DNA from: Escherichia coli
Lineage (GTDB): Bacteria; Pseudomonadota; Gammaproteobacteria; Enterobacterales; Enterobacteriaceae
Assembly: GCF_041886205.1 (NCBI RefSeq)
Contig: NZ_CP169030.1
Direction: 5' to 3' (one strand)
Length of the DNA stretch: 64,000 nucleotides
The position numbers and the translations under genes are program-made. The notes below the pieces were generated by a model. That model was not told the DNA's origin and did no database searches. It saw only the letters and a list, made by a program, of their open reading frames with translations. Shown here in pieces: positions 1-45,729 of the stretch (positions within the stretch are counted from its first letter, which is position 1; every line of letters starts with the position of its first letter).

Positions 1-2
1 CA

Positions 3-1004
3 GACTGGATCCCAGGTATCAGTGGACATAATGATGAATATCTGAATCTTTTTGAGCCCGTCAGTGAGGATTTTCGTCATATCCAGACGACCGGTAAACG
101 ACTCAGCAGCCTGACGCACTGGCGATATTATTTTGCCTTCTCCTCACCACAGAATGTTCTGCCACCTGAATTCTTCAGACAGCTTTTTGAACAGGCTGGC
201 GTATCGGAAAAACAGCAGCAGCTTTCTGAATTGCTGCTCTCAAAAATCAACAGTGTGGGCAGTCTGTCCGGAACCTGGTTTGAACATATACTGAGCAGAC
301 TGACTCCAGGCCTGATAAGAGAACGTAATTTCGAAGAGTGCGCAGGACTGGTTCATTTTTTCTTCGATCACACCGATGAGGTGAGCACTCGCTTCAGTAT
401 CCGTAACCCATGGTTTTCCCTGCGTGAAATGGCCATTAATGAGGTTGTACGGCATCTGCTGAAGCATATGCAGGATATTGATGAGACCAGAACGATCACG
501 CTTATGGAAAAACTGATCGTTACGGGTGCTTCGCCGTTCTGGATAGCCGATTTTATGCGGGATCTTATCTGGGAACATGGACTTGCTCAGAATGCAGTAC
601 CTTCGCCTTCAGACGCTCTTTTCAGTCGCGATATTACGGAACGGTTGCGTGACAGGTTTGCGGAACGTATGAATCAACCAGAACTTCAGCAACAGCTTCT
701 CCTGCGCAAGTCTCTTCTCGGGTATCTCTACGCCTGGAGAGACATGAGTTCAGGTGAAACCGTGAAGCAATGGGTCAGAGAAGTTACTACCACTGATGAA
801 GGCCTTGTTAACCTGTTGATACGATTACAGACCAGTGTCTTCAGCTCCCACCGAGGGGCATATCGCCGGATTGCGCGTGACCAGGTCAGTCCGTTCTTTG
901 ATGACTGGCCAGCAGTCGAAGAGAAGTTGAAGGTTATGCTGTCCGGCAACGAGCTGACTCCGGAGCAGGAAGCGCTCAAAACAGCGCTGGAAAATGACGA
1001 CTGA
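3..1004 (+). CDS. Hypothetical protein, 5'-truncated by window start (reading frame open from position 3; ORF track start at 231 is only the first in-frame Met)
   Basis: Frame stays open without stops from nt 3 to stop at 1004; no recognisable catalytic motif; convergent with TIR-like gene and separated by a hairpin terminator. Confidence 0.4.
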   Translation, partial: DWIPGISGHNDEYLNLFEPVSEDFRHIQTTGKRLSSLTHWRYYFAFSSPQNVLPPEFFRQLFEQAGVSEKQQQLSELLLSKINSVGSLSGTWFEHILSRLTPGLIRERNFEECAGLVHFFFDHTDEVSTRFSIRNPWFSLREMAINEVVRHLLKHMQDIDETRTITLMEKLIVTGASPFWIADFMRDLIWEHGLAQNAVPSPSDALFSRDITERLRDRFAERMNQPELQQQLLLRKSLLGYLYAWRDMSSGETVKQWVREVTTTDEGLVNLLIRLQTSVFSSHRGAYRRIARDQVSPFFDDWPAVEEKLKVMLSGNELTPEQEALKTALENDD

Positions 1005-1015
1005 CCAAAAATTAA

Positions 1016-1036
1016 GGCCGCTTAGCGGCCTTTTTC
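1016..1036. terminator. Bidirectional rho-independent terminator hairpin (GGCCGC-TTA-GCGGCC followed by T-run)
   Basis: Perfect 6-bp stem palindrome ggccgcttagcggcc then ttttt, located between two convergent ORF ends. Confidence 0.5.
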
Positions 1037-1053
1037 TTACTAAATGAAGGAGA

Positions 1054-1953
1054 TCAGGCGCTTAATGCTTTATCCTTGTCAAAAGGAACACCGGCATACG
1101 CAAGCTCACTCAGCAGTTTGCGTTTCCATCCACCATGCTCATCAAGCTCGGTATAGAGAACCCCGGCAAGATCTGAAGGGATTTCGATATCTCCCTTCCT
1201 GAGTACAAGTACTTTCCCGCGTCCAAGCTTCCCGGCGAAATATCCGAGCTCATACAGGACATTCTGGCGTGCGCGGAGACGTGTGCTTTCAGATGCCAGA
1301 GCACTGCCGCTATCGTCGGGCGTCATCAGCACGATGGCAAAACTGACATCCCCTGACTCTGCTTCAAATTTCTCGATAATCGTCCTGGAGCCGTCAGGAC
1401 GTTCTGAAAGAATGATTTCCTCAAGACCTATCCGGGATATAAAACGGGCAACAGACTGAAGGGCATCATTATCATGGCCATGAACAATAAAAATTTTTCG
1501 GGAAACCGGCCGAAACACTGCAGGCTCAGGATCGTGTTGGTTTTCCACATACAACTGGTAATCGCGCACGAACGGGGCAACTAATGACGACGTGAATTTT
1601 CGAATGGATTCAATAATGTTTCGATCATAGAAAAATGTATGACAGAAATTAAAGGAAAAATTGTTATCGTCTGCCATTTTCTCGATCAGCAGCAACTTCA
1701 GGCCCAAAATATCAGCGGGCTCATCAGGCCACTGTAGAACAGCGGAACCAGCCATGCTGGATTCAGTATCTTCACTCCTGGCCAGAAAGGTATCAAGTTC
1801 AACATTGCGGGTCAGATGTGCATTAACTGACTGCAGATTCTCTGAGTTCAAGAGCCGGGCCAATTGCTTAAGAGGTTGCTGATAGTTCTGAACGTCAGCG
1901 CGCTGAAGGTCGAATACGCAATTTTTAAGTGACTGAAAGATATCAATTGCCAT
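1054..1953 (-). CDS. TIR-like domain protein (COG4271/PF10137-type C-terminal domain) with uncharacterised N-terminal domain; candidate anti-phage effector
   Basis: C-terminal half contains KIFIVHGHD ... AIVLMTPDD ... RARQNVLYELGYFAGKLGRGKVLVL, matching the hallmark motif pattern of bacterial TIR-like nucleotide-binding domains seen in CBASS/Pycsar/Thoeris-type effectors; ~45 percent GC. Confidence 0.5.
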   Translation of the reverse strand: MAIDIFQSLKNCVFDLQRADVQNYQQPLKQLARLLNSENLQSVNAHLTRNVELDTFLARSEDTESSMAGSAVLQWPDEPADILGLKLLLIEKMADDNNFSFNFCHTFFYDRNIIESIRKFTSSLVAPFVRDYQLYVENQHDPEPAVFRPVSRKIFIVHGHDNDALQSVARFISRIGLEEIILSERPDGSRTIIEKFEAESGDVSFAIVLMTPDDSGSALASESTRLRARQNVLYELGYFAGKLGRGKVLVLRKGDIEIPSDLAGVLYTELDEHGGWKRKLLSELAYAGVPFDKDKALSA

Positions 1954-2233
1954 CCTGCCCGCTCTCCTGTCTTTGTTGTTCTGCTCTGTCCAGAATCTGT
2001 TGGCGCAGATTTTCTTTCATGTGTTCGATTAATGGGCTGACCATCGGATTAGTGGCATAACCAGAAGCGCGTTCGTACACCATGGAATAGGCTTCCTGAA
2101 TCGCGTTCTCAATGCTGACAGGATCGTTAGCATCGAAGTGGACATCATAACTTCCGTTTAATGCCTCTGTTGCTCTCTCAACCTCTTTTAGCTGTTTCTG
2201 CATTTTGTCTAAACCTGTGATTTTGACGCTCAT
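1943..2233 (-). CDS. Small hypothetical protein (96 aa), upstream gene of the TIR-like operon, 11-nt overlap with downstream gene
   Basis: ORF immediately upstream and overlapping the TIR-like gene on the same strand, suggesting translational coupling; no recognisable motif. Confidence 0.4.
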   Translation of the reverse strand: MSVKITGLDKMQKQLKEVERATEALNGSYDVHFDANDPVSIENAIQEAYSMVYERASGYATNPMVSPLIEHMKENLRQQILDRAEQQRQESGQDGN

Positions 2234-2381
2234 AACAACCTCCGGACTAAGTGAGATGTATCAACCTTTATAGATAGCACGTTGGAGATGTGGGGTAAGG
2301 GATATCACTCAAATTCCATGTAATTTCATTAAGATCAGACTTAACCTTTTTTCGGATCTCAGATAAAAAAGAAAGAAATAG

Positions 2382-2512
2382 AGATATGCTAAACATATGC
2401 CTGGCATCTACATATGCTACCGCTATACATATGCCACACATCTGCCTATACTAAACATATGCACACACCCGGTGCTTTGAATATTCCGGATATGTTTCAC
2501 ATATCCATATGC
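2382..2512. promoter_or_regulatory. vapBC promoter/operator region with at least five ACATATGC repeats
   Basis: Motif (A)CATATGC occurs at about 2393, 2411, 2427, 2455 and 2505 directly upstream of the vapB start codon; CATATG is palindromic. Confidence 0.4.
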
Positions 2513-2528
2513 TCGGGAGAGAAAAAAC

Positions 2529-2759
2529 ATGAGAACCGTATCGATATTTAAAAATGGCAACAACCGCGCCATCCGTCTGCCTCGTGATCTGGATTTTGAG
2601 GGGGTGAGCGAGCTCGAGATCGTCCGGGAAGGGGACAGCATCATCCTGCGCCCCGTCCGGCCAACCTGGGGATCATTCCTAGAGTACGAAAAAGCCGATC
2701 CAGATTTTATGGCGGAGCGCGAGGATGTTGTCAGCGACGAAGGGCGATTTAACCTGTGA
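2529..2759 (+). CDS. vapB: VapB/VagC-type antitoxin (AbrB/SpoVT fold)
   Basis: 76 aa, N-terminal SpoVT/AbrB-like motif (RAIRLPRDL), stop overlaps start of PIN toxin gene. Confidence 0.8.
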   Translation: MRTVSIFKNGNNRAIRLPRDLDFEGVSELEIVREGDSIILRPVRPTWGSFLEYEKADPDFMAEREDVVSDEGRFNL

Positions 2760-3172
2760 ACAAGACTTATATGCTTGATACCTGTATCTGCTCGTTCATC
2801 ATGCGTGAACAGCCAGAAGCCGTCCTGAAGCGTCTGGAGCAGGCGGTGCTACGCGGCCACCGTATAGTGGTCTCGGCCATCACCTACTCTGAAATGCGCT
2901 TCGGGGCTACCGGCCCAAAGGCCTCACCACGTCACGTCCAACTGGTCGATGAATTCTGCGCCCGCCTCGATGCCATCCTGCCCTGGGATCGCGCCGCAGT
3001 AGACGCCACCACGAAGATTAAAGTGGCACTGCGGCTGGCCGGGACGCCGATCGGCCCGAACGACACGGCGATTGCCGGGCACGCCATCGCCGCCGGGGCG
3101 ATACTGGTAACGAATAATACAAGAGAATTTGAGCGAGTGCCTGACCTGGTGCTGGAAGACTGGGTGAAGTAA
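2756..3172 (+). CDS. vapC: VapC/VagD PIN-domain toxin
   Basis: 138 aa; MLDTCICSF N-terminus and C-terminal VTNNTREFERV motif typical of plasmid VapC/VagD PIN nucleases. Confidence 0.85.
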   Translation: MNKTYMLDTCICSFIMREQPEAVLKRLEQAVLRGHRIVVSAITYSEMRFGATGPKASPRHVQLVDEFCARLDAILPWDRAAVDATTKIKVALRLAGTPIGPNDTAIAGHAIAAGAILVTNNTREFERVPDLVLEDWVK

Positions 3173-3209
3173 GACACTCTTTTCAAAGTCAGGAGATAAG
3201 GGCACCAAG

Positions 3210-3235
3210 AAACAGCCCGTATACGGGCTGTTTTA
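3210..3235. terminator. Bidirectional terminator hairpin (AAACAGCCCG-TATA-CGGGCTGTTTT)
   Basis: Perfect inverted repeat flanked by A-run and T-run between convergent vapC and the RloC-like gene. Confidence 0.5.
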
Positions 3236-3333
3236 ACAGATATCTACAGTAAGCGGTCCTAAACTGTAGGGTATCTTCGAAGATCAGACTATCAGGGAGC
3301 TAAAGCCTATCTTCCGGCGGCAAAAACAGTGGC

Positions 3334-5472
3334 TCAAGCGATACGGGCAACCGAGCTCTGGTTTGCTGCCGGTGGCAGGGCGATGAGCTTGTCACATTCC
3401 ATAATCACGTACTCCGGGATGAGATCGAATCTGGACGGATCTAGTTGACAGATGAACTCATTTTCAATGTGGTACGTTTCGTTAACGAATTTTCGTATTA
3501 CCGGATGGTCCTGATCCAGTTCCAGTAAACGGAATACCTGCAGTTTTTCATAGCCGTTACGACAGCGACGGTACAGGTTTTTTATTTCATCTGGGCTGCT
3601 GACGAGAGCCTGAAGTCGCGGGTAATCAAAACTGTCCACATACTCCCGGATATCCCGCAAGGCCTGCTGAATTTTCTCAGGAGCCATTTTGGGATAGCCC
3701 GAGCCCGCAGCGGCAGGCTCGCGATAATCCAGCGGGACGACGCGTCGATGGAATAGATTGGATAGAAGCTGATAAGCATCACCACGTTCGTCAACGATTT
3801 CAAAGTAGCGACGAAGATAGATGAGCTTAATGATCTCCTCACAGTCTGCTGACGCGGTGATGGATTTGCAGATCTGCATGAATGTCATGATATCGCCGTC
3901 GTTAACAGGTAATTCTTCTATGACTCCAGCAGACAGGCGCAGGCAGGAGGCGGTCACCTGATTACTGAACAACCTTCTGACTGACTTCAGCGTGTCAATC
4001 ACAGGCTCCACGTCATGCGTCAGCATAAGTACAGTCCGGTTCTTCAGGCATTCACCACTTGCACGTCTGAACAGCATTTCAAGAATGGCAAACTTCTTGT
4101 TTTTATCAAAAGAAGATATGGGATCATCAAGGATAATCAGTCCCGGGTTTTTTGACAGGCATTCATACATGAATAACACAATCGCAAAGGCGTTCCGTTC
4201 TCCATAGCTGAGATGCTGGCTACCGCCGCTGACGTACCCGTCAAAATCTATGTGTCGTAGCCTGAGTTTTCTCTGCTCTCCCTCGCCGGCTATATCCACC
4301 CTGTATTTATAGCCTGCATAAGTGAGGAAATTATTGATGTTTGTTTTGTGCTGTGCGATCAGCCGGATCATGCTGTCCCGGTGCCGGTTAATTTTTCCCT
4401 GCAGCGGTCCGGCAAGGTTTATCAGGTCCATAAGGGCCGCGTTCAGTCTGTCGGTGATCCCCTGCATGAGTTCGGATTGCAGATCAGGGAAGAACTGCAG
4501 GTCAATCAACCTGGCAGTGAGCACCTCCCGAACGTTCTGCTGTTCCTGCAGGCTGAAAACATTCAGGCCTCTCAGCGCAGTGAGTTTCTCTGTCAGCGTA
4601 TCGGTCTGGCGTTTCAACGCCACTAGGTACTCGATATGTTCGGCTTCCGGACCGTTCTGAAGCATAGTAATGGCCAGAAGGCGTTCTCTGGCGCTCTCCG
4701 TCAGGTAATTACCGAGGTTTTCCACCAGTCTGATGATAGCGGTCAGGTTTTTAATGGTGGATTTATCGTATTCCTCTCTGACTTGGCGAATTTGTGCTTC
4801 CTTTCCCGTGATATCACCGGTACAGAACGGACAGCAGCCATCCGAAAGGGGCGAAAACTCGAGTCCCTTTGTCTGCCAGTCAATCCATTCCACGCGGCGT
4901 TCACTGCGGATGTAGGGTTGATAGTTCTCAAGACCAGCCGGAATGTGGTGTATTTTATTTCCGCCTGACAGACCTCTCATGCCGGTTGAAGAACGTGAAA
5001 TCCCGGAACTGGTTGATCTGAAAGCATTACTGAGTTCCTGTAGATGGTCTATCAGAGAGTTCAGCTCAGTGTGATCCGTGAAAACAGCCCGGATCTTTTG
5101 CGTCATTTCTTCTATTTCACGCTCTCTTTCCGCATGGGCTTGATTGCGGATAAGAATATTAAAGCTATCACTGATGAGCTCGTCCGGTTGGAACGTAAAC
5201 TGACTGACGTACTCCTCGTTGAAGCACATCACGTCCCCAATCCCGTCAGCACCGATGACAATGGGCCCGGTGCTATCGGGGTTTTCTCCGCGCAGCCGGA
5301 AGGGTATCAGTGCCTGTAGTCCCTGAATGTCGTCCCGCGCCGCACAGCTTATGGCCCGTGACAGCGTACTTTTTCCAGTACCATTTGGCGCAAACTTAAT
5401 GTTCAGTTTATCGGCAGTGAGGGTGATATGTGCTCGTACGATGTTATTGCAGTGGCGTATTTCAATGTCCAT
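3334..5472 (-). CDS. ABC-type ATPase with coiled-coil CxxC zinc hook and C-terminal domain; RloC/PrrC-like anticodon-nuclease candidate
   Basis: Walker A (FAPNGTGKST) at N-terminus, long predicted coiled-coil insert containing CPFC, Walker B/D-loop (LIILDDPISSFD) and H-loop (LMLTHD), then ~220-aa C-terminal domain with LRRYFE and H-containing motifs; architecture matches RloC. Confidence 0.5.
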   Translation of the reverse strand: MDIEIRHCNNIVRAHITLTADKLNIKFAPNGTGKSTLSRAISCAARDDIQGLQALIPFRLRGENPDSTGPIVIGADGIGDVMCFNEEYVSQFTFQPDELISDSFNILIRNQAHAEREREIEEMTQKIRAVFTDHTELNSLIDHLQELSNAFRSTSSGISRSSTGMRGLSGGNKIHHIPAGLENYQPYIRSERRVEWIDWQTKGLEFSPLSDGCCPFCTGDITGKEAQIRQVREEYDKSTIKNLTAIIRLVENLGNYLTESARERLLAITMLQNGPEAEHIEYLVALKRQTDTLTEKLTALRGLNVFSLQEQQNVREVLTARLIDLQFFPDLQSELMQGITDRLNAALMDLINLAGPLQGKINRHRDSMIRLIAQHKTNINNFLTYAGYKYRVDIAGEGEQRKLRLRHIDFDGYVSGGSQHLSYGERNAFAIVLFMYECLSKNPGLIILDDPISSFDKNKKFAILEMLFRRASGECLKNRTVLMLTHDVEPVIDTLKSVRRLFSNQVTASCLRLSAGVIEELPVNDGDIMTFMQICKSITASADCEEIIKLIYLRRYFEIVDERGDAYQLLSNLFHRRVVPLDYREPAAAGSGYPKMAPEKIQQALRDIREYVDSFDYPRLQALVSSPDEIKNLYRRCRNGYEKLQVFRLLELDQDHPVIRKFVNETYHIENEFICQLDPSRFDLIPEYVIMECDKLIALPPAANQSSVARIA

Positions 5473-5689
5473 TTATCTGTCCTTTGCCAGTTATTCCGGG
5501 GGGATTCATATCCTTCCGCAAAATGTGCCCGCATGCTGTGATGCAGATACATAATACATTTCGTTTATACCATTGCTTACACCTCTCCGAGGTGTTCATA
5601 TCAGAAACAAAGATTAGGTCGATCCGACTTAGCCGGAAACCGGATCTGCGCGGCAGAAAAGACGCAAATGATATGATAATTAAGAAATA

Positions 5690-5815
5690 TACATAAAATC
5701 ATATCAGATATGATTTTAATCATTAAAAATGAAACAATATCTGATATTATCAGAAATCAAAAGCACACAAATCATACATGATATGATTTTTACCTGTCAG
5801 AACATTATCAGATGG
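5690..5815. promoter_or_regulatory. AT-rich divergent promoter region with repeated inverted repeats (AAAATCATATC-a-GATATGATTTT and related)
   Basis: Perfect 11-bp arms at 5695-5717 and an imperfect copy at about 5769-5790, lying between the divergently oriented RloC-like gene and the 85-aa gene. Confidence 0.35.
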
Positions 5816-5825
5816 AGCGTGCAGG

Positions 5826-6083
5826 ATGGATCAGGAAATGACGTTTTCACTCAGCTATGAACAACTGACCCGGTTTGCGGAACGACGCATCCGGGAATGC
5901 AATCTGGACAGCCAGGGCGCGATTTATCTCTGCGAGTCAGCCAAAGCCGGAGCCGTGCTGATCTTCTGGCATGAACTGGCCATAAATGGCTATGCCTCAA
6001 TGAATGCCATAAAGAGACAGGAGCTCATTGACGCCGACTTTCAGCGCCTCAGAAAGCTCATCTGGCCGGAGGATGACAGGTAA
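5826..6083 (+). CDS. Hypothetical protein (85 aa), first gene of a translationally coupled pair
   Basis: ORF with stop overlapping the start of the next gene (TAATG); no recognisable motif. Confidence 0.4.
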   Translation: MDQEMTFSLSYEQLTRFAERRIRECNLDSQGAIYLCESAKAGAVLIFWHELAINGYASMNAIKRQELIDADFQRLRKLIWPEDDR

Positions 6084-6673
6084 TGACCCAGAGCCGCCGA
6101 CCGTCGCCACTGCAGCGGAGAGTGCTGATTGTGCTGGCTGCCCTTGATGAAAAACGGCCAGGACCCGTGCTGACGCGGGACATAGAACGGGTGCTGGAGC
6201 GAAGCGGGGAAGCCCCGGTCTACGGGCCAAACCTGCGCGCCTCCTGCCGTCGTCTGGAGGATGCCGGCTGGCTGCGTACCCTGCGCGCTCCGAACCTGCA
6301 GCTGGCAGTGGAGCTGACGGACGCCGGCCGGGCCGTGGCACAGCCTCTGCTGCTGGCAGAACAGGACCGCCTCCGGGCAGAACAGCGTGCGGCAGAAGTC
6401 GTCGTACTGCCGCTGGTCCCGGCAGCAGGTCTGCACGCAGACGGCACTTCTGCCACTGATCTGGCGGTGGAGCTGAACGGCATAACGTATCAGGCCTGCC
6501 GTGGGGATTTTGTGGTGCGTCTCGACGGCAGCACCTGTCTGCAGTTATGGAATAAAGAAGGCAGAGTGGTACGCCGGGAGGGCGATCCGCTGGAAGTGGC
6601 GCAGTGGCTGCAGGCCTGTCATGATGCCGGAATAGAAGTTCGTGTACAGGTTAATGAAAGCGTCACTCCGTAA
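6083..6673 (+). CDS. Putative winged-helix DNA-binding protein (196 aa), high GC
   Basis: N-terminal segment LQRRVLIVLAALDEKRPGPVLTRDIERVLERSG resembles a wHTH; about 65 percent GC, contrasting with the AT-rich upstream region. Confidence 0.4.
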   Translation: MTQSRRPSPLQRRVLIVLAALDEKRPGPVLTRDIERVLERSGEAPVYGPNLRASCRRLEDAGWLRTLRAPNLQLAVELTDAGRAVAQPLLLAEQDRLRAEQRAAEVVVLPLVPAAGLHADGTSATDLAVELNGITYQACRGDFVVRLDGSTCLQLWNKEGRVVRREGDPLEVAQWLQACHDAGIEVRVQVNESVTP

Positions 6674-6690
6674 AAACATGCCAGCACGGT

Positions 6691-7038
6691 TTACACGTCA
6701 TCCCATGATGGCAGCCGGTTAACTTTCCTGCGCCACCAGTGGAAAGAGGCCATGAGCAGTCCGAACAAAAAACCACCCGTGATACTTATAATAATGGCCT
6801 CACCTGCCACCATTCCTGACGGCCTCCAGTAGATAAACCACATTGCACATCCCCAGGAAATGCCCCATAAGCCCCCCGTCAGCACCGTGACCTGCCAGAA
6901 CGGCATAAAGGGTAATGGCGGAAGCCGGATACCCAGCCGCCAGAGAATACGCAGAAGAGGAGGGGCATAATTGCTCCGCCACATCTTTTTGCTGTCCATC
7001 AGGGCAATGGCCCGGGCTTTTTTCTGCTCAAAGGTCAC
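6691..7038 (-). CDS. Small hydrophobic membrane protein (115 aa), function unknown
   Basis: Two or three hydrophobic segments (LPPLPFMPFWQVTVLTGGLWGISWGCAMWFIYW; IIISITGGFLFGLLMASF); located next to the colicin immunity gene. Confidence 0.4.
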   Translation of the reverse strand: MTFEQKKARAIALMDSKKMWRSNYAPPLLRILWRLGIRLPPLPFMPFWQVTVLTGGLWGISWGCAMWFIYWRPSGMVAGEAIIISITGGFLFGLLMASFHWWRRKVNRLPSWDDV

Positions 7039-7166
7039 AGGAGCACCTCCGTTCCATGATGTAAACGTGACACAGCTTATTGTTATTGATTATTATTATC
7101 ATGCTGTGATTATGTTGTCATGCATCAGTACACTGACAAAAGTGCAAAAGAAAGGAAAACAGGCAG

Positions 7167-7502
7167 ATGAACAGAAAATATTATTTTAATAATATGTGGT
7201 GGGGATGGGTGACGGGGGGATATATGCTGTATATGTCATGGGATTATGATTTTAAATACAGATTACTGTTCTGGTGTATTTCTCTCTGCGGAATGGTTTT
7301 GTATCCGGTTGCAAAATGGTATATTGAAGATACAGCTCTGAAATTTACCCGGCCTGATTTCTGGAACAGCGGTTTTTTTGCTGATACACCTGGAAAAATG
7401 GGATTGCTTGCTGTTTATACGGGTACTGTTTTCATATTATCTCTTCCGTTAAGTATGATATATATTCTTTCTGTTATTATAAAAAGGCTGTCTGTAAGAT
7501 AG
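7167..7502 (+). CDS. Colicin Ia/Ib-type pore-forming colicin immunity protein
   Basis: 111-aa membrane protein MNRKYYFNNMWWGWVTGGYMLYMSW... recalled as the colicin Ia immunity protein; convergent with a colicin C-terminal remnant as in ColIa/ColIb loci. Confidence 0.6.
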   Translation: MNRKYYFNNMWWGWVTGGYMLYMSWDYDFKYRLLFWCISLCGMVLYPVAKWYIEDTALKFTRPDFWNSGFFADTPGKMGLLAVYTGTVFILSLPLSMIYILSVIIKRLSVR

Positions 7503-7523
7503 ACAGCCTGTCTTATATTTTAT

Positions 7524-7639
7524 TTAAATACCCCAGAACTTATTCGCTTTTTCCACAAGCGATTCATCAATCAGCGCACCGGTGACAGCCATCAGTAAAC
7601 CATACCCGATAATGCCTAAAGCGCTTCCGGTAAGAATAG
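7524..7639 (-). pseudogene. Colicin Ia-type gene remnant: only the last ~38 codons (C-terminal hydrophobic hairpin ... ESLVEKANKFWGI) remain, truncated by IS903-like element
   Basis: Minus-strand translation ILTGSALGIIGYGLLMAVTGALIDESLVEKANKFWGI-stop ends at 7524; frame is cut at the IS inverted repeat at 7640. Confidence 0.5.
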
Positions 7640-8698
7640 GCTTTGTTGAATAAATCAGATTTCGGGTAAGTCTCCCCCGTAGCGGGTTGTGTTTTCAGGC
7701 AATACGCACGCTTTCAGGCATACCTGCTTTCGTCATTTTGTTCAGCGCTCGTACCAGGGCCATAGCCTCTGCAACCTGACCATCGTAGTCACGCAGCGTC
7801 AGTGAACCCCCGAACAGCTGTTTTACCCGGTACATCGCCGTTTCCGCTATCGAGCGACGGTTGTAATCTGTTGTCCATTTCCACCGCGCATTACTCCCGG
7901 TCATTCGCTGATTAGCCACTGCACGGTTACGGTCTGCATATTCACCGGGCCAGTAACCCGCACCTTTTCGGGGAGGGATAAGCGCGCTGATTTTCTTACG
8001 CCGCAGTTCATCGTGACATAGCCGGGTATCGTAAGCGCCATCGGCGGCGGCTGACCTGATTTTCCGGTGGGTTTGCCGGATTAACCCGGGGAAGGCCTCT
8101 GAGTCCGTAACGTTGTTCAGCGACAGGTCAGCGCAGATGATTTCATGTGTTTTACTGTCAACGGCGAGATGCAGCTTACGCCAGATACGGCGGCGTTCCT
8201 GGCCATGCTTTTTGACTTTCCACTCGCCTTCACCGAAGACCTTCAGCCCGGTGGAATCAATTACCAGGTGTGCGATTTCACCCCGGGTGGGCGTTTTGAA
8301 ACTGACATTAACCGACTTTGCCCGCCTGCTGACACAGCTGTAATCCGGGCAGCGTAGCGGAACGTTCATCAGAGAAAAAATGGAATCAATAAAGCCCTGC
8401 GCAGCGCGCAGGGTCAGCCTGAATACGCGTTTAATGACCAGCACAGTCGTGATGGCAAGGTCAGAATAGCGCTGAGGTCTGCCTCGTGAAGAAGGTGTTG
8501 CTGACTCATACCAGGCCTGAATAGCTTCATCATCCAGCCAGAAAGTTATGGAGCCACGGTTGATGAGGGCTTTATTGTAGGTGGGCCAGTTGGTGATTTT
8601 GAACTTTTGCTTTGCCACGGAACGGTCTGCGTTGTCGGGAAGATACGTGATCTGATCCTTCAACTCAGCAAAAGTTCGATTTATTCAACAAAGCCCGT
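7640..8698. mobile_element. IS903-like insertion sequence (IS5 family, IS903 group), 1059 bp
   Basis: Terminal inverted repeats GGCTTTGTTGAATAAATC at both ends bracketing a 322-aa IS5-family transposase; no matching 9-bp target duplication. Confidence 0.8.
7695..8663 (-). CDS. tnp: IS5-family (IS903-group) transposase
   Basis: 322-aa DDE transposase ORF filling the IS between its inverted repeats. Confidence 0.85.
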   Translation of the reverse strand: MKDQITYLPDNADRSVAKQKFKITNWPTYNKALINRGSITFWLDDEAIQAWYESATPSSRGRPQRYSDLAITTVLVIKRVFRLTLRAAQGFIDSIFSLMNVPLRCPDYSCVSRRAKSVNVSFKTPTRGEIAHLVIDSTGLKVFGEGEWKVKKHGQERRRIWRKLHLAVDSKTHEIICADLSLNNVTDSEAFPGLIRQTHRKIRSAAADGAYDTRLCHDELRRKKISALIPPRKGAGYWPGEYADRNRAVANQRMTGSNARWKWTTDYNRRSIAETAMYRVKQLFGGSLTLRDYDGQVAEAMALVRALNKMTKAGMPESVRIA

Positions 8699-8810
8699 AA
8701 TTCATTTTATCTCCTACAAGATTATTTAATGGAATGAAAAATATCTGGCCTGATAATAATGTTCCAGAATTAATATCTGCAGGCTATGTTAAGTTGTCCC
8801 CACACACAAT

Positions 8811-9086
8811 CTACCTGTTTTCTCGTGTGTGCCACAGGCGCAATACATAAATAGTCTGGCCATTAAGTTCGTAACGGATTTCGTACTCGCCAGCAAAAAT
8901 CCGTCTGACCTCCCTGGGTTCAAACTGAAACAACTGTTCTCCCATACGTGGATGAGTTAACAGAATGACCGGTGCCTGTGTCAGGGATTGCACCGTTCTG
9001 GCGGCCGCAGGTTTACTGGCCAGCACCAGAAAATCATATAACCGCGCCAAATCAGAAAGCGCCTTACTGGTCCACTTCAGTTCCAT
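8811..9086 (-). CDS. RelE/ParE-family toxin
   Basis: 91 aa with typical RelE/ParE C-terminal signature; overlaps upstream antitoxin gene by 1 nt. Confidence 0.7.
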   Translation of the reverse strand: MELKWTSKALSDLARLYDFLVLASKPAAARTVQSLTQAPVILLTHPRMGEQLFQFEPREVRRIFAGEYEIRYELNGQTIYVLRLWHTRENR

Positions 9087-9370
9087 CAGCGTGGCACCGG
9101 TAACGGATTGTCAGTACTGAGGCTGTCCGCCCAGGCCTGTACAGCCTGATGGTCGATAACCTGTCCGGATGTCACATCGTCCAGGGCTTCCAGCGTCAGG
9201 CGATTACGCTCCTCCTCCTGGGCAAGCCATGCAGAAAGCGCCTGTTTGATAACCCAGCCCCGGGAGCGTTCCAGCCTGGCGGCCATCTGGTCGACTTTAT
9301 CAGCCATAGGTAATGGCACATGCGCGGTAATGACTTTTGTTGCTTGTGCACTATTGTTTTTCATTTGCAT
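9086..9370 (-). CDS. Antitoxin (RHH/ParD-like) of the RelE/ParE module
   Basis: 94-aa ORF immediately upstream of and overlapping the toxin gene. Confidence 0.6.
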   Translation of the reverse strand: MQMKNNSAQATKVITAHVPLPMADKVDQMAARLERSRGWVIKQALSAWLAQEEERNRLTLEALDDVTSGQVIDHQAVQAWADSLSTDNPLPVPR

Positions 9371-9465
9371 ATCCGATTAGTTGTTAATCATATTTAATCA
9401 TAGTGATTACATTCAGACCGAACAAGGCAAATAATGCGCATCTGCGCATGTAAGGCAGCATACGG

Positions 9466-9520
9466 AGGTTACATGTAACACAGGTGTAAAACCGCCAAAG
9501 CCCGGCGTAAGCCGGTACGG
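9466..9520. repeat. Copy 1 of ~55-bp imperfect direct repeat (GGTTACATGT ... GTAAAACCGCC-AAGCCCGGCGTAAGCCGGTACGG) with internal CCGGC-GTAA-GCCGG hairpin
   Basis: Near-identical sequence recurs at 31651-31707 in the same orientation. Confidence 0.5.
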
Positions 9521-9566
9521 TCGTCCGAATATCACCAGTCCCACTCCGGCCCTGCGAGGCCATGTG

Positions 9567-9604
9567 GGGGGAACCGCAGAATTCGGAAAAAATCGTACGC
9601 TAAG
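9567..9604. repeat. Left 38-bp terminal inverted repeat of the Tn1721-like transposon
   Basis: GGGGGAACCGCAGAATTCGGAAAAAATCGTACGCTAAG. Confidence 0.8.
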
Positions 9605-9755
9605 CTAACGGTGTTCTCGTGACAGCTCTTTGACTAGGCTTTCTAAGGCCATTCTGATAGCCCTGACTTCCTGAAAAGCCATGGCTAAAATTTGTGCGGC
9701 TAAAAGGGATAACCGATGGTAAAGTAAGTTATCCCTGTCGAGATACTGAAAAGCG

Positions 9756-11333
9756 TTATCCTCGTTTTTCCCAAAACTGTTTTGCCAGTTCGCTCAGAGC
9801 GCTAGTTAACTGAGCGACAGATTTCGCACTTTGCAAATTATTCTGCCCGGTCTGTACATTGGTATCAGCAGCATCGCGTATATTGATAATACTGCGGTTT
9901 ATGTCTTCACTTACTGCTCCCTGCTGCTCGACCGCAGTCGCTATTTGCGCGTTCATGTCGGTAATTTCGTTAACGCGTTGGCCAATTCCATCAAGAGCTG
10001 TAGCTGCTTCCTCTGCGTGAGCTACACTCGTGTGCGCTTGCCGACTACTTTGCTCCATGACTGTAACAGCGGATTGCGCTCGCTCTTGTAGAGCGCTGAT
10101 CATGCTTTGAATATCCGTTGTCGATTGCTGTGTGCGAGCAGCAAGACTGCGAACCTCATCGGCGACAACAGCAAAACCACGCCCCTGCTCACCAGCACGC
10201 GCGGCCTCAATTGCTGCGTTGAGTGCCAACAAATTCGTTTGCTCGGCGATCCCTCGTATAACGTCAAGAACTTTTGATATCTCGTTACTTTGACCTTCAA
10301 GCTCATGAATAACCTGAGTGGCTTGCCTAATTTCACCTTCAAGGGCAGTGATTGACTGGCTTGTGTGGGCTACCAGACGCTGGCCAGATGCCGTCTCAGT
10401 GTCTGCTCTTCCGGCCGCATCTGCAGCATGCTGTGCATTGCTCGCAACCTCTTGAATGCTTGCCACCATTTGGTTTACTGCCGTTGCTATTTGATCTGTC
10501 TCTGCCTGCTGCTCAACTGTAAGTACATTGCTTGACTCAATATCCTTTAGTAGGCCTCGGGTGTGTTCGCTAAGCCGATTTGATGCATCACCTATGCGAC
10601 CTACTATGGCGCCTGTTTCAGCTTGCATCATTCGTAAAGCAAACTCTATTTGGCCAAACTCATCGGTGCGCCCAGTGTAGAGGGATTGACTTAATGGGTT
10701 ATTGGAAATATTCTTGGCTCTTTCAACCAGTCTTCCAAGAGGAGAGAGAATAGCCAAAACACTAACAGAGCTTAAGCTTCCTGACATTAAAGTGGCTAAC
10801 AATAAGCTGCTTATTGATGTATCAGTAAGCATGCCGGCAGCCATTGCGCTTGATATAATACTACCCCATATGAGCAAGAGTATTTTCACGGAAAAGCTAG
10901 CAGCCAATTTCGGCCTCGCGGCCTTCCCGCTTCTCAATTGAGCATATAATTTTTCCGCAGCCAAAACCTGCTCAGGTTCAGGCTTGGTCCTTACAGACTG
11001 GTATTCAACAATCGAACCATTCTTAGCTATTGGCGTTACATAAGCACTTACCCAATAGTGGTCGCCATTTTTACAGCGATTTTTTACTAGCCCCATCCAT
11101 GAGCGGCCAGATTTTAATGTACTCCACATATGCTCAAATGCAGCAGGCGGCATATCTGGGTGTCTTACGATGTTGTGAGGCTGGCCTAATAGTTCTTCCT
11201 CAGTGAAACCACTGATTTTAATGAAGTCAGGATTAACGTACGTGATATGGCTTTGAGGGGAGGTAGTCGAAAGAATATTGGCATCTTTTGGGAGTTCTAA
11301 GTTTCGACCCGTCACTGGTAAATTCTGGCGCAT
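9756..11333 (-). CDS. Methyl-accepting chemotaxis protein-like protein with PAS domain (Tn1721 orfI-type cargo)
   Basis: 525 aa; N-terminal PAS-like region, central TM segments, C-terminal MCP signalling domain ([31 protein letters not shown]). Confidence 0.8.
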
Positions 11334-11620
11334 AAGAACCTCAAGGGTTGGCTGTTTTATTTTATTGTTTTCGGCATTAAGCCCAATTTCTTGAGCGTTA
11401 CGATAAAGCTAGCATGGAAACGATAGGTGCAAGCAAGTTAAGGGTTGCATCGCGCATGTCAATCTAGGCTATACCCTAACTTGATGTCAGGCAGGGCCGC
11501 GCCGCTTCGTCAGAATAGAGTCTGCTTTCCCATTTTTTGACACATGCCCGCGAAGGTTATAGATTTCAGCCTGACAGAAATGGGCTTTGAGGCACAACGG
11601 AACAGAAAGTGCACTTAAGC

Positions 11621-11625
11621 CGCCT
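11621..11625. repeat. 5-bp target-site duplication (CGCCT) flanking IRt of the integron
   Basis: CGCCT immediately outside IRt; the same pentamer lies immediately outside the second IRi at 22464-22468. Confidence 0.6.
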
Positions 11626-11650
11626 TGTCATTTTCAGAAGACGACTGCAC
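11626..11650. repeat. IRt (25-bp terminal inverted repeat at tni end of Tn402-like integron)
   Basis: TGTCATTTTCAGAAGACGACTGCAC. Confidence 0.8.
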
Positions 11651-11766
11651 CAGTTGATTGGGCGTAATGGCTGTTGTGCAGCCAGCTCCTGACAGTTCAA
11701 TATCAGAAGTGATCTGCACCAATCTCGACTATGCTCAATACTCGTGTGCACCAAAGCGAGGTGAGC

Positions 11767-13446: not shown

Positions 13447-13448
13447 CC

Positions 13449-14357
13449 GTGGACGAATATCCCATCATCGACCTGTCCCACCTGCTGCCGGCGGCCCAGG
13501 GCTTGGCCCGTCTTCCGGCGGACGAGCGCATCCAGCGCCTTCGCGCCGACCGCTGGATCGGCTATCCGCGCGCAGTCGAGGCGCTGAACCGGCTGGAAGC
13601 CCTTTATGCGTGGCCAAACAAGCAACGCATGCCCAACCTGCTGCTGGTTGGCCCGACCAACAATGGCAAGTCGATGATCGTCGAGAAGTTCCGCCGCACC
13701 CACCCGGCCAGCTCCGACGCCGACCAGGAGCACATCCCGGTGTTGGTCGTGCAGATGCCGTCCGAGCCGTCCGTGATCCGCTTCTACGTCGCGCTGCTCG
13801 CCGCGATGGGCGCGCCGCTGCGCCCACGCCCACGGTTGCCGGAAATGGAGCAACTGGCTCTGGCACTGCTGCGCAAGGTCGGCGTGCGCATGCTGGTGAT
13901 CGACGAGCTGCACAACGTGCTGGCCGGCAACAGCGTCAACCGCCGGGAATTCCTCAACCTGCTGCGCTTCCTCGGCAACGAACTGCGCATCCCGTTGGTT
14001 GGGGTAGGCACGCGCGACGCCTACCTAGCCATCCGCTCCGATGACCAGTTGGAAAATCGCTTCGAGCCGATGATGCTGCCGGTATGGGAGGCCAACGACG
14101 ATTGCTGCTCACTGCTGGCCAGCTTCGCCGCTTCGCTCCCGCTGCGCCGGCCTTCCCCAATTGCCACGCTGGACATGGCTCGCTACCTGCTCACACGCAG
14201 CGAGGGCACCATAGGGGAACTGGCGCACTTGCTGATGGCGGCGGCCATCGTCGCCGTGGAGAGCGGCGAGGAAGCGATCAACCATCGCACACTCAGCATG
14301 GCCGTTTACACCGGACCCAGCGAGCGGCGGCGGCAATTCGAGCGGGAACTGATGTGA
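13449..14357 (+). CDS. tniB: TniB NTP-binding transposition protein
   Basis: Walker A VGPTNNGKS, probable GTG start at 13449 giving MDEYPIIDL. Confidence 0.85.
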   Translation: MDEYPIIDLSHLLPAAQGLARLPADERIQRLRADRWIGYPRAVEALNRLEALYAWPNKQRMPNLLLVGPTNNGKSMIVEKFRRTHPASSDADQEHIPVLVVQMPSEPSVIRFYVALLAAMGAPLRPRPRLPEMEQLALALLRKVGVRMLVIDELHNVLAGNSVNRREFLNLLRFLGNELRIPLVGVGTRDAYLAIRSDDQLENRFEPMMLPVWEANDDCCSLLASFAASLPLRRPSPIATLDMARYLLTRSEGTIGELAHLLMAAAIVAVESGEEAINHRTLSMAVYTGPSERRRQFERELM

Positions 14358-45648: not shown

Positions 45649-45729
45649 AAACGTATATCCCTTTGACATATCCCGGCATCAATCCCACAATGGATATACA
45701 CAAGACATATCCACATAAGGAGGCAAATA

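What the first reader, a model, noticed from the sequence alone, without database searches (positions are those of the whole stretch)
1..9400. Dense island of defence and addiction modules next to an orphan colicin immunity gene
Within 9.4 kb there are a truncated unknown ORF, a TIR-like operon, vapBC, an RloC-like ATPase, a wHTH gene pair, a small membrane protein, colicin immunity and a RelE/ParE pair, separated by strong terminators and AT-rich promoters. Clustering like this is typical of defence islands, which raises the prior that the unannotated genes here are defence-related.
Basis: inference. Interest (0 to 1): 0.5.

Follow-up and report, generated by a model that had tools for sequence, protein, structure and literature searches.

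The report
Plasmid cargo zone of defence genes
This 9.4-kb stretch is the well-known variable cargo region of F-type and IncI1 plasmids, a patchwork of phage-defence, toxin-antitoxin and colicin-immunity modules almost identical to DNA on plasmids F and R64, and its one fresh lead is an unstudied two-gene TIR module.

Summary
Three points need correcting:

- The "truncated unknown ORF" is pifA, the phage T7 exclusion gene. It is cut only by the window edge and is 333/333 identical to F/R64 PifA.
- A complete IS903B (7639-8695) was overlooked. It has no target duplication and has removed all but 37 codons of the colicin Ia gene, which is why the immunity gene is an orphan.
- Promoter-like and terminator-like sites are not enriched over chance.

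PADLOC models hit three proteins: PifA, the TIR protein (PDC-S35) and the 712-aa ATPase (PDC-S06).

The segment is not new DNA. Positions 1-6767 are 99.2% identical to R64, 1-2359 match plasmid F, and at least 177 plasmids carry most of 1-7639. The literature already describes this as a hypervariable, phage-interfering region. The window is a recombinant: an R64-type left arm and an AP024116-type right arm joined near 5500-5631.

New here:

- The TIR gene is strictly coupled to the small upstream gene yuaX in every testable locus.
- The ATPase matches RloC in its ATPase part only.
- ydfA-ydeA act as a conserved anchor preceded by three palindromes.

Verdict: an ordinary, already known island with one worthwhile lead.

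The parts
1..1004 (+). 3' part of pifA (codons 409-741 plus stop). PifA is the phage T7 exclusion protein of F, a KAP-type P-loop NTPase. The gene is cut by the window edge.
   Evidence: The frame is open from base 3. The product is 333/333 identical to R64/F PifA. It hits PADLOC PifA at 2.6e-75. In CP043740 the gene is annotated 'phage T7 exclusion protein' next to pifC.
1014..1032 (.). Bidirectional terminator hairpin between the convergent pifA and TIR genes.
   Evidence: Stem of 8 bp (6 G-C pairs) with T-runs on both strands.
1054..1953 (-). 299-aa protein with an all-helical N-terminal domain (1-139) and a Cap12/PycTIR-type TIR domain (150-299). It is the PADLOC candidate PDC-S35.
   Evidence: PF10137 at 3.7e-37 and PDC-S35 at 2.3e-65. 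AF2 model has pLDDT 80.6. The best Foldseek match is TIR-STING 9lmq. E235 is invariant and aligns with the Glu of the FEFG motif in Cap12 and PycTIR.
1943..2233 (-). yuaX, a 96-aa protein whose gene overlaps the TIR gene by 11 nt. It is the obligate partner of the TIR protein.
   Evidence: 41-44% identical to the upstream small genes of distant TIR homologues. Those genes carry PF27363 'YuaX'. Co-occurrence was 9/9 against 0/70 and 3/3 in the reverse look-up.
2385..2462 (.). Three copies of a 16-nt repeat (TATGCTAAACATATGC) upstream of vapB. Probably the VapB operator (inferred).
   Evidence: the repeat finder family D1. A promoter-like site lies at 2424-2452.
2529..3172 (+). vapB (2529-2759) and vapC (2756-3172), a type II toxin-antitoxin pair whose genes overlap by 4 nt.
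   Evidence: MazE_antitoxin at 3.2e-9 and PIN at 2.8e-15. VapC matches solved tRNA(fMet)-specific VapC endonucleases at 3e-27. Annotated vapB/vapC in R64.
3334..5472 (-). 712-aa Rad50/SMC-type ABC ATPase. It has a coiled-coil insertion with a CPxC motif (214-217) and a conserved helical C-terminal domain (about 500-700) of unknown fold family. It is the PADLOC candidate PDC-S06.
5695..5790 (.). Three palindromes (consensus AAATCATATCAGATATGATTT) overlapping the ydfA operon promoter. Candidate operator array.
   Evidence: Inverted repeats I2 and I5. A promoter-like site at 5723-5750 coincides with the promoter predicted with BProm 103 bp upstream of ydfA in PMC12111858.
5826..6673 (+). ydfA (5826-6083, 85 aa) and ydeA (6083-6673, 196 aa). 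A conserved plasmid gene pair of unknown function that serves as a recombination anchor.
   Evidence: Present in 3959 plasmids. Named and shown to be co-transcribed with ibfA in pUA1135 (PMC12111858). No family hit apart from a weak AbiEi_4 wHTH match. GC content is 62-65%.
6691..7038 (-). 115-aa DUF6404 membrane protein of unknown function. It travels with ydfA-ydeA and the colicin Ia/Ib locus.
   Evidence: PF19942 at 5e-38 and phrog_31022 at 6e-39. It lies in the segment shared with ColIb-P9, window 5632-7133.
7167..7502 (+). iia, the colicin Ia immunity gene (111 aa). It is intact but orphaned.
   Evidence: PF03526 at 2.5e-7, above the curated cut-off. The same DNA in AP024116 is annotated 'colicin 1A immunity protein'.
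7524..7638 (-). 3' stub of the colicin Ia gene cia (last 37 codons plus stop).
   Evidence: It translates to ILTGSALGIIGYGLLMAVTGALIDESLVEKANKFWGI* and abuts the IS903B inverted repeat.
7639..8695 (-). IS903B, 1057 bp (transposase gene 7695-8663). It has no target-site duplication, so it marks a deletion or recombination junction.
   Evidence: Terminal inverted repeats. DDE_Tnp_1_5 at 3.4e-40. Annotated IS903B in matching plasmids. The flanking 9-mers, gtaagaata and cgtaattca, differ.
8811..9370 (-). ParE/RelE-family toxin (8811-9086) and RHH antitoxin (9086-9370), a type II toxin-antitoxin pair of the plasmid backbone.
   Evidence: ParE_toxin at 7.7e-17 and RHH_1 at 1.2e-10. The 870-bp segment is found in 2865 plasmids. 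The same ParE protein lies near rep in an IncK2/Z plasmid.

Best explanation
Window 1-9400 is the accessory cargo zone of an IncF plasmid. It is the counterpart of the hypervariable repZ-to-rfsF/resD region of IncI1 plasmids. It is a mosaic of self-contained modules, not one system.

The modules:
- A (1-2359): the end of pifA, plus the yuaX-TIR operon. F also carries this module.
- B (2360-5630): vapBC and the PDC-S06 ATPase. This module is R64-type.
- C (5631-7133): ydfA-ydeA and the DUF6404 gene.
- D (7134-7638): colicin Ia immunity gene and a stub of cia.
- IS903B (7639-8695).
- E (8696-9566): parE and its RHH antitoxin.

How it was assembled. Modules are exchanged by homologous recombination at conserved anchors. 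This copy is an R64-type left arm joined near 5500-5631 to an AP024116-type right arm. An IS903B-associated deletion removed the colicin gene and left immunity only.

What each part most likely does:
- PifA aborts T7-type infections (established for F).
- VapBC and ParE/RHH stabilise the plasmid by post-segregational killing (inferred from family).
- Iia protects the host from colicin Ia made by competitors (inferred from identity).
- YuaX plus the TIR protein form a two-protein abortive-infection module (inferred). A Cap12/PycTIR-type NADase is held in check or triggered through its own helical N-domain and YuaX. No cyclic-nucleotide signal is involved.
- The PDC-S06 ATPase is a Rad50-like sensor ATPase that controls a C-terminal effector domain, in the manner of PrrC and RloC (inferred).
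- YdfA/YdeA regulate their own operon through three palindromes (inferred).
For: Identity and mosaic structure:
- Megablast and blastn give these breakpoints: F 1-2359, R64 1-6767, CP043740 1-7133, ColIb-P9 5632-7133, AP024116 5631-12000.
- The difference map shows 3 differences to R64 in 1-5500 but 52 in 5501-6767. There is 1 difference to AP024116 in 5631-12000.
- GC content steps from 0.38 to 0.65 between modules.

Cargo swapping at the same slot is seen.

Literature: this is a hypervariable region that alters phage sensitivity, with pifA and ibfA assigned (PMC8004404, PMC12111858).

Defence calls are, with the internal control.

Orphan immunity: cia stub, IS903B inverted repeats and the lack of a target duplication.

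yuaX-TIR coupling:
- All four distant TIR homologues looked up have a YuaX gene directly upstream.
- In viral contigs, 9 of 9 testable full-length loci have it and 0 of 70 TIR-only loci do.
- All three YuaX homologues looked up in reverse are followed by the TIR gene.
- The catalytic Glu is conserved and the TIR fold is confirmed.
- Neighbours include Gabija-like OLD-TOPRIM/UvrD genes and a prophage immunity region.

PDC-S06: full-length family of about 700 aa, invariant Walker A, CPxC and Walker B motifs, and invariant C-terminal R554/K643/H668. One homologue sits inside a type I restriction-modification operon.
Against: - No function of YuaX, the TIR protein, the PDC-S06 ATPase, YdfA, YdeA or DUF6404 has been tested. 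PDC-S06 and PDC-S35 are computational candidates only.
- Of 10 alternative cargo genes at the same slot in other plasmids, only IbfA hit a PADLOC model. Enrichment for defence across the hotspot is therefore not shown statistically.
- The array 1-6767 is very stable, at least 99% identical in many plasmids. That looks more like backbone than rapidly turning-over cargo.
- The zone also accumulates IS elements and resistance transposons.
- The pifA 5' half and pifC lie outside the window, so I cannot confirm that the gene is intact.
Confidence: 0.75

Rival explanations
1. The segment is ordinary plasmid backbone. It would be a conserved maintenance and regulatory block inherited vertically within IncI1/IncF lineages. 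The TIR protein and the ATPase would serve plasmid biology, such as addiction, entry exclusion or competition with other plasmids, rather than phage defence.
For: - The segment is 99.2% identical to R64 over 6.7 kb, and at least 177 plasmids carry most of it.
- ydfA-ydeA occur in 3959 plasmids and the parE segment in 2865.
- Two bona fide addiction modules are interleaved with the candidates.
- The small-upstream, larger-downstream overlapping layout of yuaX-TIR resembles a toxin-antitoxin pair.
Against: - ColIb-P9, AP024116, the IncK2/Z plasmid and F each lack or replace modules at sharp breakpoints. The block is therefore dispensable for plasmid maintenance.
- The yuaX-TIR pair and the ATPase family also occur in chromosomes and prophages, next to restriction-modification and Gabija-like genes and far from any plasmid function.
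- PifA and IbfA at this locus are experimentally anti-phage (PMC12111858; PMC11990801).
Confidence: 0.15
2. The clustering has no functional meaning. This is simply the one stretch of the plasmid that tolerates insertions. Unrelated mobile cargo of all kinds piles up there, and defence genes are found there by chance.
For: [quoted passage not shown]
- 9 of 10 alternative cargo genes gave no PADLOC hit.
- Promoter-like and terminator-like sites are not enriched.
Against: - Three strong PADLOC hits fall within 5.5 kb, against none among 10 control ORFs in the same window.
- At least four independent phage-interference determinants map to this slot in related plasmids: pifA, R64 ibfA, ColIb ibfA, and the 1273-aa protein implicated in phage-type conversion in U307 isolates (PMC8004404).
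- Modules are exchanged by homologous recombination at anchors rather than by transposition.
Confidence: 0.1

Closest known systems
Hypervariable repZ-to-rfsF/parA region of IncI1 plasmids (R64 'Delta' gene set, pUA1135) and the pif region of plasmid F
   Same: - Same genes in the same order: pifA, the TIR gene, yuaX, vapBC, the AAA_13 ATPase gene, ydfA, ydeA.
- Identity is 99.2% to R64 over 1-6767 and 98.3% to F over 1-2359.
- The literature describes it as variable and as changing phage sensitivity (PMC8004404, PMC12111858).
   Different: - This copy sits on an IncF plasmid with F-type tra genes.
- It lacks ibfA.
- Its right arm comes from an AP024116-type plasmid: DUF6404 gene, iia, IS903B, parE.
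- It has lost the colicin gene.
CBASS Cap12 (TIR-STING) and Pycsar PycTIR effectors
   Same: - Same TIR subfamily (PF10137).
- The conserved catalytic Glu sits in the same motif.
- The closest solved structures are 9lmq, 7un8 and 8jsj.
   Different: - No cyclase gene is nearby.
- There is no STING, SAVED or cNMP-binding domain.
- Instead there is a helical N-domain with no detectable relatives, and an obligate 95-aa partner, YuaX.
RloC and PrrC, restriction-linked anticodon nucleases
   Same: - Rad50-like ABC ATPase with a coiled-coil insertion and a CxxC motif, followed by a C-terminal domain.
- A homologue lies between hsdS and hsdR of a type I restriction-modification operon.
   Different: - The C-terminal domain shows no sequence similarity to the PrrC or RloC nuclease domains.
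- No RloC model hit was found, and the PrrC hit (3.5e-4) lies in the ATPase part only.
- No restriction-modification genes lie next to it in this window.
vapBC/mvpAT of enterobacterial virulence plasmids, and parDE-type plasmid addiction modules
   Same: - PIN toxin related to the tRNA(fMet)-specific VapC (3e-27).
- Overlapping antitoxin-toxin genes.
- Repeats in the promoter region.
- ParE toxin with an RHH antitoxin.
   Different: Nothing notable. These are ordinary family members. Their activity here has not been tested.

Membership tests
PifA (F-plasmid T7 exclusion) | Sequence homology to F PifA | tested here: met
   333/333 identical to residues 409-741. PADLOC PifA at 2.6e-75.
PifA (F-plasmid T7 exclusion) | Complete gene with the N-terminal P-loop and pifC upstream | not testable with these tools
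   Codons 1-408 and pifC lie left of the window start.
CBASS Cap12 / Pycsar PycTIR effector | PF10137-type TIR domain with the catalytic glutamate | tested here: met
   PF10137 at 3.7e-37. E235 is invariant and aligns with the FEFG Glu of 9lmq, 7un8 and 8jsj.
CBASS Cap12 / Pycsar PycTIR effector | Adjacent CD-NTase or pyrimidine cyclase gene | tested here: not met
   The neighbours are pifA, yuaX and vapBC. The 13 distant loci show no cyclase.
CBASS Cap12 / Pycsar PycTIR effector | Cyclic-nucleotide sensor domain (STING, SAVED or cNMP-binding) fused to the TIR domain | tested here: not met
   The N-domain (1-139) is all-helical and has no Pfam or PDB match.
Thoeris | A ThsB-type TIR gene next to an effector gene with a recognisable killing or signal-binding domain | tested here: not met
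   There is no ThsB hit among the PADLOC matches. The only partner is the 96-aa YuaX, which matched no Pfam family above threshold and no solved structure.
PADLOC candidate PDC-S35 | Match to a PDC-S35 model | tested here: met
   PDLC05005 at 2.3e-65. The PADLOC hits were models for this protein alone, whereas here an obligate partner gene is shown.
RloC | Rad50-like ABC ATPase with a coiled-coil insertion and a CxxC hook | tested here: met
   Invariant G31/K34, C214-P-x-C217 and D449/D450. The AF2 model shows the coiled coil. Structural matches are Rad50 and SMC heads.
RloC | C-terminal PrrC-type anticodon nuclease domain | tested here: not met
   20 C-domain sequences hit only PDC-S06 model PDLC04889, with no PrrC or RloC hit and no Pfam or PDB hit. 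A remote fold relationship cannot be excluded.
PADLOC candidate PDC-S06 | Full-length match to a PDC-S06 model | tested here: met
   PDLC04889 at 8.5e-286, covering residues 1-698.
Type II toxin-antitoxin VapBC | AbrB/MazE-fold antitoxin gene overlapping a PIN toxin gene | tested here: met
   The overlap is 4 nt.
Type II toxin-antitoxin ParDE/RelE-like | RHH antitoxin gene overlapping a ParE-family toxin gene | tested here: met
Colicin Ia operon (cia-iia) | Immunity gene present | tested here: met
   PF03526 above its cut-off. Annotated as the colicin 1A immunity protein on essentially identical DNA (1 difference in 6.4 kb).
Colicin Ia operon (cia-iia) | Cognate colicin gene present | tested here: not met
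   Only the last 37 codons remain, next to IS903B.
IS903B simple insertion | 9-bp target-site duplication flanking the element | tested here: not met
   The flanking 9-mers are gtaagaata and cgtaattca.
Defence island / hotspot | Several defence genes adjacent, with the content differing between otherwise related replicons | tested here: met
   against control. Cargo differs in F, R64, ColIb-P9, AP024116 and the IncK2/Z plasmid.

The most novel reading that the evidence does not exclude
The yuaX-TIR operon may be an uncharacterised, self-contained anti-phage abortive-infection system. It is carried by the classical F plasmid and by R64. It is conserved as a strictly coupled gene pair across Proteobacteria and their prophages. 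In this reading the 95-aa YuaX protein, acting through a dedicated helical N-domain, gates a Cap12/PycTIR-type NADase without any cyclic-nucleotide second messenger. Alongside it, the PDC-S06 ATPase may be a PrrC/RloC-style restriction-linked effector with a new C-terminal domain.
Probability: 0.45. Interest if true: 0.6.

Novelty: already known. Interest (0 to 1): 0.3.

Why it matters
As an island it changes little. The DNA is on F, R64 and hundreds of sequenced plasmids. The region is already described as variable and phage-interfering, and PADLOC already lists two of its genes as candidates.

Three practical points follow:

- **An untested TIR module on F.** The most-used laboratory plasmid, F, carries a conserved two-gene TIR module that nobody appears to have tested. 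The BASEL phage collection was isolated and typed on hosts carrying F with only pifA deleted (PMC11990801). Those hosts therefore presumably still carry yuaX-TIR, so phages sensitive to it may have been excluded.
- **How conjugative plasmids reshuffle cargo.** The ydfA-ydeA anchor, with variable cargo on both sides, gives a simple handle for mining new defence or competition genes from thousands of plasmids.
- **Immunity without the colicin.** The orphan colicin Ia immunity gene is a clear example of a plasmid keeping protection while losing the weapon through an IS-mediated deletion.

Tried and rejected
- **DUF6404 as the ColIb-P9 'ibfA' (T5/BF23 abortive infection).** Rejected. ColIb ibfA lies at nt 13,401-13,745 (PMC8004404). 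The segment shared with the window is ColIb-P9 10,563-12,066.
- **The TIR gene as part of CBASS, Pycsar or Thoeris.** Rejected. There is no cyclase, no nucleotide-sensor domain and no ThsA-like partner.
- **Excess of promoters or terminators.** None found.
- **Rfam families in 1-12000.** None found.
- **PDB or Pfam relatives of YuaX, the TIR N-domain, YdfA or YdeA.** None significant.
- **Homologue search for YdeA.** The listed hits were all close plasmid variants (80-99% identical), so it was not useful for fold inference.
- **PADLOC scan of 10 alternative cargo genes at the same slot.** Only IbfA scored.
- **Literature searches.** Searches for PDC-S35, YuaX and the RefSeq protein accessions found no functional study. 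PDC-S06 is mentioned only as a prediction.
- **vapBC plus PDC-S06 as one system.** Rejected. The distant ATPase homologues examined have no vapBC next to them.

Full report
**What is in the sequence.** ORF listing and family scans give the following map for window 1-9400.

| Coordinates | Strand | Feature | Main evidence |
|---|---|---|---|
| 3-1004 | + | Open frame running off the window start | See pifA below |
| 1054-1953 | - | 299-aa protein with a CAP12/Pycsar TIR domain | PF10137, 3.7e-37 |
| 1943-2233 | - | 96-aa gene, overlaps the TIR gene by 11 nt | |
| 2529-3172 | + | vapB and vapC | MazE-type 3.2e-9; PIN 2.8e-15 |
| 3334-5472 | - | 712-aa AAA_13 ATPase | AAA_13, 1.3e-17 |
| 5826-6673 | + | 85-aa and 196-aa gene pair | No family above threshold |
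| 6691-7038 | - | DUF6404 membrane protein | PF19942, 5e-38 |
| 7167-7502 | + | 111-aa colicin immunity protein | PF03526, 2.5e-7 |
| 7639-8695 | - | IS903B | DDE transposase domains |
| 8811-9370 | - | ParE-family toxin and RHH antitoxin | 7.7e-17; 1.2e-10 |

- The 'truncated unknown ORF' is pifA. The frame is open from base 3, and the product is 333/333 identical to residues 409-741 of the PifA protein shared by F and R64. It hits PADLOC PifA at 2.6e-75. Only the window edge cuts it.
- The IS903B was missed.
- The 'strong terminators and AT-rich promoters' are not an enriched feature. There were 12 promoter-like sites against 11.4 +/- 3.7 expected from shuffles, and 11 terminator-like sites against 8.0 +/- 2.1. 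Two bidirectional hairpins between convergent genes are convincing, at 1014-1032 and 7485-7509.

**Why the immunity gene is an orphan.** Downstream of iia, on the minus strand, lie the last 37 codons of the colicin Ia gene (ILTGSALGIIGYGLLMAVTGALIDESLVEKANKFWGI*, 7524-7638). They run straight into the left inverted repeat of a complete 1057-bp IS903B at 7639-8695. The 9-mers on the two sides of the IS differ (gtaagaata and cgtaattca). This is therefore not a simple insertion but a deletion or recombination junction that removed the rest of cia. In CP043740 and ColIb-P9 the full colicin gene is present at the corresponding place.

**Where this DNA is known from.** Megablast against PLSDB shows the following.

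| Plasmid | Window range matched | Identity |
|---|---|---|
| R64 (NC_005014) and dozens of IncI1 plasmids | 1-6767 | 99.2% |
| CP043740 (IncFIA) | 1-7133 | 99.2% |
| Plasmid F | 1-2359 | 98.3% |
| ColIb-P9 | 5632-7133 | 96.4% |
| AP024116 (IncFIA/FIC) | 5631-12000 | 99.98% |

- At least 177 plasmids carry 80% or more of 1-7639.
- In CP043740 the left neighbours are pifC, ccdAB, a resD-like integrase and a replication initiator gene.
- The rest of the window carries F-type tra genes, so the host replicon is IncF.
- Two papers describe the IncI1 equivalent of this region, between repZ and rfsF/parA, as hypervariable and as the source of phage-type conversion.
- Those papers assign pifA, and assign ibfA as an ATPase-TOPRIM protein equal to PADLOC HEC-04. 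IbfA is experimentally active against a P22-like phage (PMC8004404, PMC12111858).
- They name the 85-aa and 196-aa genes ydfA and ydeA.
- They show by RT-PCR that ydfA-ydeA-ibfA-proQ-like is one transcript, and that ibfA alone restores defence.

**The window copy is a recombinant.** Counting differences in 500-bp bins gives a clear pattern.

- Against R64 there are 3 differences in 1-5500 but 52 in 5501-6767.
- Against AP024116 there is 1 difference in 5631-12000.
- Against F there is 1 difference in 1-1750 and 38 in 1751-2359.
- The island is therefore an R64-type left arm (pifA through the ATPase gene) joined to an AP024116-type right arm. The joint lies in the intergenic region between the ATPase gene and ydfA.
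- GC content steps from 0.38 (iia) to 0.65 (ydeA), in keeping with modules of different origin.

**Cargo differs at the same slot in other plasmids**.

| Plasmid | Between resD and ydfA | After ydeA |
|---|---|---|
| ColIb-P9 | A DUF4238 gene and others | imm-cib |
| AP024116 | Two small unknowns | DUF6404 gene, iia, IS903B |
| R64 | The array seen in this window | ibfA |

- A Klebsiella IncFIB plasmid carries parDE directly upstream of ydfA.
- ydfA-ydeA themselves are in 3959 of 72,556 plasmids. They behave as a conserved anchor with variable cargo on both sides.

**Is it a defence island?**

- PADLOC models hit three of the ten proteins in 1-7502: PifA, PDC-S35 (the TIR protein, 2.3e-65) and PDC-S06 (the ATPase, 8.5e-286, full length).
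- Ten large ORFs elsewhere in the window gave no hit at 1e-5.
- Together with the validated or historical phage-interference genes at this slot in related plasmids, this supports a real concentration of defence functions.
- Two cautions apply. Of ten alternative cargo genes from other plasmids, only IbfA scored. The zone also collects IS elements and a Tn402-like resistance transposon starting near 9567.
- 'Permissive cargo zone rich in defence, addiction and competition genes' is the accurate description.

**The TIR operon.**

- The 299-aa protein is conserved over its full length, at about 50% identity, in Alpha-, Beta- and Gammaproteobacteria.
- The AF2 model (pLDDT 80.6) shows an all-helical N-domain (1-139, pLDDT about 90), a short linker, and a TIR/flavodoxin fold (150-299).
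- The closest solved structures are the TIR domains of Cap12 TIR-STING, matching the TIR part only.
- The invariant E235, in RARQNVLYELGYF, aligns with the glutamate of the FEFG motif in Cap12 and PycTIR. From my own knowledge, that residue is the catalytic NADase residue in SfSTING.
- There is no cyclase gene nearby and no nucleotide-sensor domain.

**The 96-aa upstream gene is a true partner of the TIR gene.**

- The four distant TIR homologues looked up (Pseudomonas, Methylobacterium, Vibrio, Agrobacterium) are each preceded by an overlapping or abutting small gene with Pfam PF27363 'YuaX'. These are 41-44% identical to the window protein.
- Among 80 viral-contig loci, a YuaX gene lies immediately upstream in 9 of the 9 testable loci that match the full-length protein. 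It lies upstream in 0 of the 70 loci that match the TIR domain only.
- Starting from three YuaX homologues (P. aeruginosa, Pseudoalteromonas, Mesorhizobium), the next gene is always a 298-311-aa PF10137 protein.
- Neighbours include a prophage repressor region, OLD-TOPRIM/UvrD (Gabija-like) genes, an SNF2 helicase and recombinases.
- Neither YuaX nor the N-domain has a relative among solved structures.
- F itself carries the pair next to pifA.

My inference is that YuaX and the N-domain form the control or sensing part of a stand-alone NAD+-depleting abortive-infection module. Whether YuaX inhibits the enzyme (antitoxin-like) or senses the phage cannot be decided here. A Thoeris-like signalling role is less likely, because YuaX is a 95-aa protein with no recognisable enzymatic domain.

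**The ATPase.**

- The family comprises 337 clusters (50% identity level) at E <= 1e-30, nearly all about 700 aa and matching end to end.
- Invariant residues are the Walker A (G31, K34), a CPxC motif (C214, P215, C217), the signature and Walker B motifs (S422, G424, D449, D450) and H486.
- In the C-terminal domain R554, K643, H668 and P686 are invariant, and E558, E665, E670 and N671 nearly so.
- The AF2 model (pLDDT 87.8, pTM 0.74) shows an ABC head split by a helical coiled-coil insertion, followed by a helical C-domain.
- The C-domain has no Pfam, PDB, PrrC or RloC match.
- One 43%-identical homologue sits between hsdS and hsdR of a type I restriction-modification operon. From my own knowledge, PrrC and RloC are found in the same kind of position.
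- The protein therefore resembles RloC in architecture and context but is not a member by the nuclease-domain criterion.

**Other parts.**

- VapC is closest to the solved tRNA(fMet)-specific VapC endonucleases (3e-27).
- Three 16-nt repeats precede vapB.
- Three palindromes (AAATCATATCAGATATGATTT) at 5695-5790 overlap the promoter-like site at 5723-5750. That site coincides with the promoter predicted with BProm 103 bp upstream of ydfA in PMC12111858. They are candidate operators for YdfA or YdeA. The wHTH assignment for YdeA rests only on a sub-threshold AbiEi_4 match (E 0.024).
- The ParE/RHH segment is common plasmid backbone, found in 2865 plasmids.
- No Rfam family was found in 1-12000.

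**Verdict.**

This is a real concentration of defence, addiction and competition modules. It is also a conserved and already described segment of F/IncI1-type plasmids, so it is not novel as an island.
The segment is conserved backbone-like DNA of known plasmid families, but six genes remain without a tested function.
- The most useful result is the strict yuaX-TIR coupling on F and R64. It turns the PDC-S35 candidate, recognised through the TIR protein alone, into a testable two-gene system.

Noticed in passing
window 9567-about 26000: A Tn402/Tn5053-like element begins about 870 bp right of IS903B. It carries a PAS-domain methyl-accepting chemotaxis gene (9756-11333) and tniA/tniB. The first 4.8 kb right of IS903B is identical to AP024116; further right, AP024116 has tniQ, a resolvase, class 1 integrons and tet(M), not checked in the window. 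GC content jumps to about 65% from 11500.
   Followed up: partly
window 5695-5790: Three copies of a near-perfect palindrome (AAATCATATCAGATATGATTT), about 37 bp apart. They overlap the -35/-10 region and the transcription start of the ydfA-ydeA operon. This looks like an operator array for an unidentified repressor.
   Followed up: partly
window 6083-6673 (ydeA): ydeA is 62-65% GC in a neighbourhood of 42-50% GC. Its homologues on other plasmids range from 169 to 214 aa at 80-97% identity, which suggests an indel-prone central segment.
   Followed up: no
L013 4001-6121 (ENA metagenome contig): A 43%-identical homologue of the 712-aa ATPase lies inside a type I restriction-modification operon, in the order hsdM-hsdS-ATPase-rhuM-hsdR.
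   Followed up: partly
L099 (Shigella sonnei IncK2/Z plasmid CP151335) 972-5736: At the same slot, ydfA-ydeA are flanked by a 499-aa RES-domain NAD+ phosphorylase and by 287-aa and 350-aa unknown proteins. None of them hit a PADLOC model. They are possible uncharted cargo of the hotspot.
   Followed up: partly
L012 (plasmid F, NC_002483) 3217-4396: Plasmid F carries yuaX-TIR next to pifA. The BASEL phage collection was isolated and typed on hosts carrying F with only pifA deleted (PMC11990801). Those hosts presumably still carry yuaX-TIR, so the phages are pre-selected to grow in its presence.
   Followed up: no
window 38000-64000: F-type conjugation genes are present (for example a 1763-aa traI-sized ORF at 40378-45669 and a 717-aa traD-sized ORF at 46364-48517). 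They identify the replicon as IncF.
   Followed up: no
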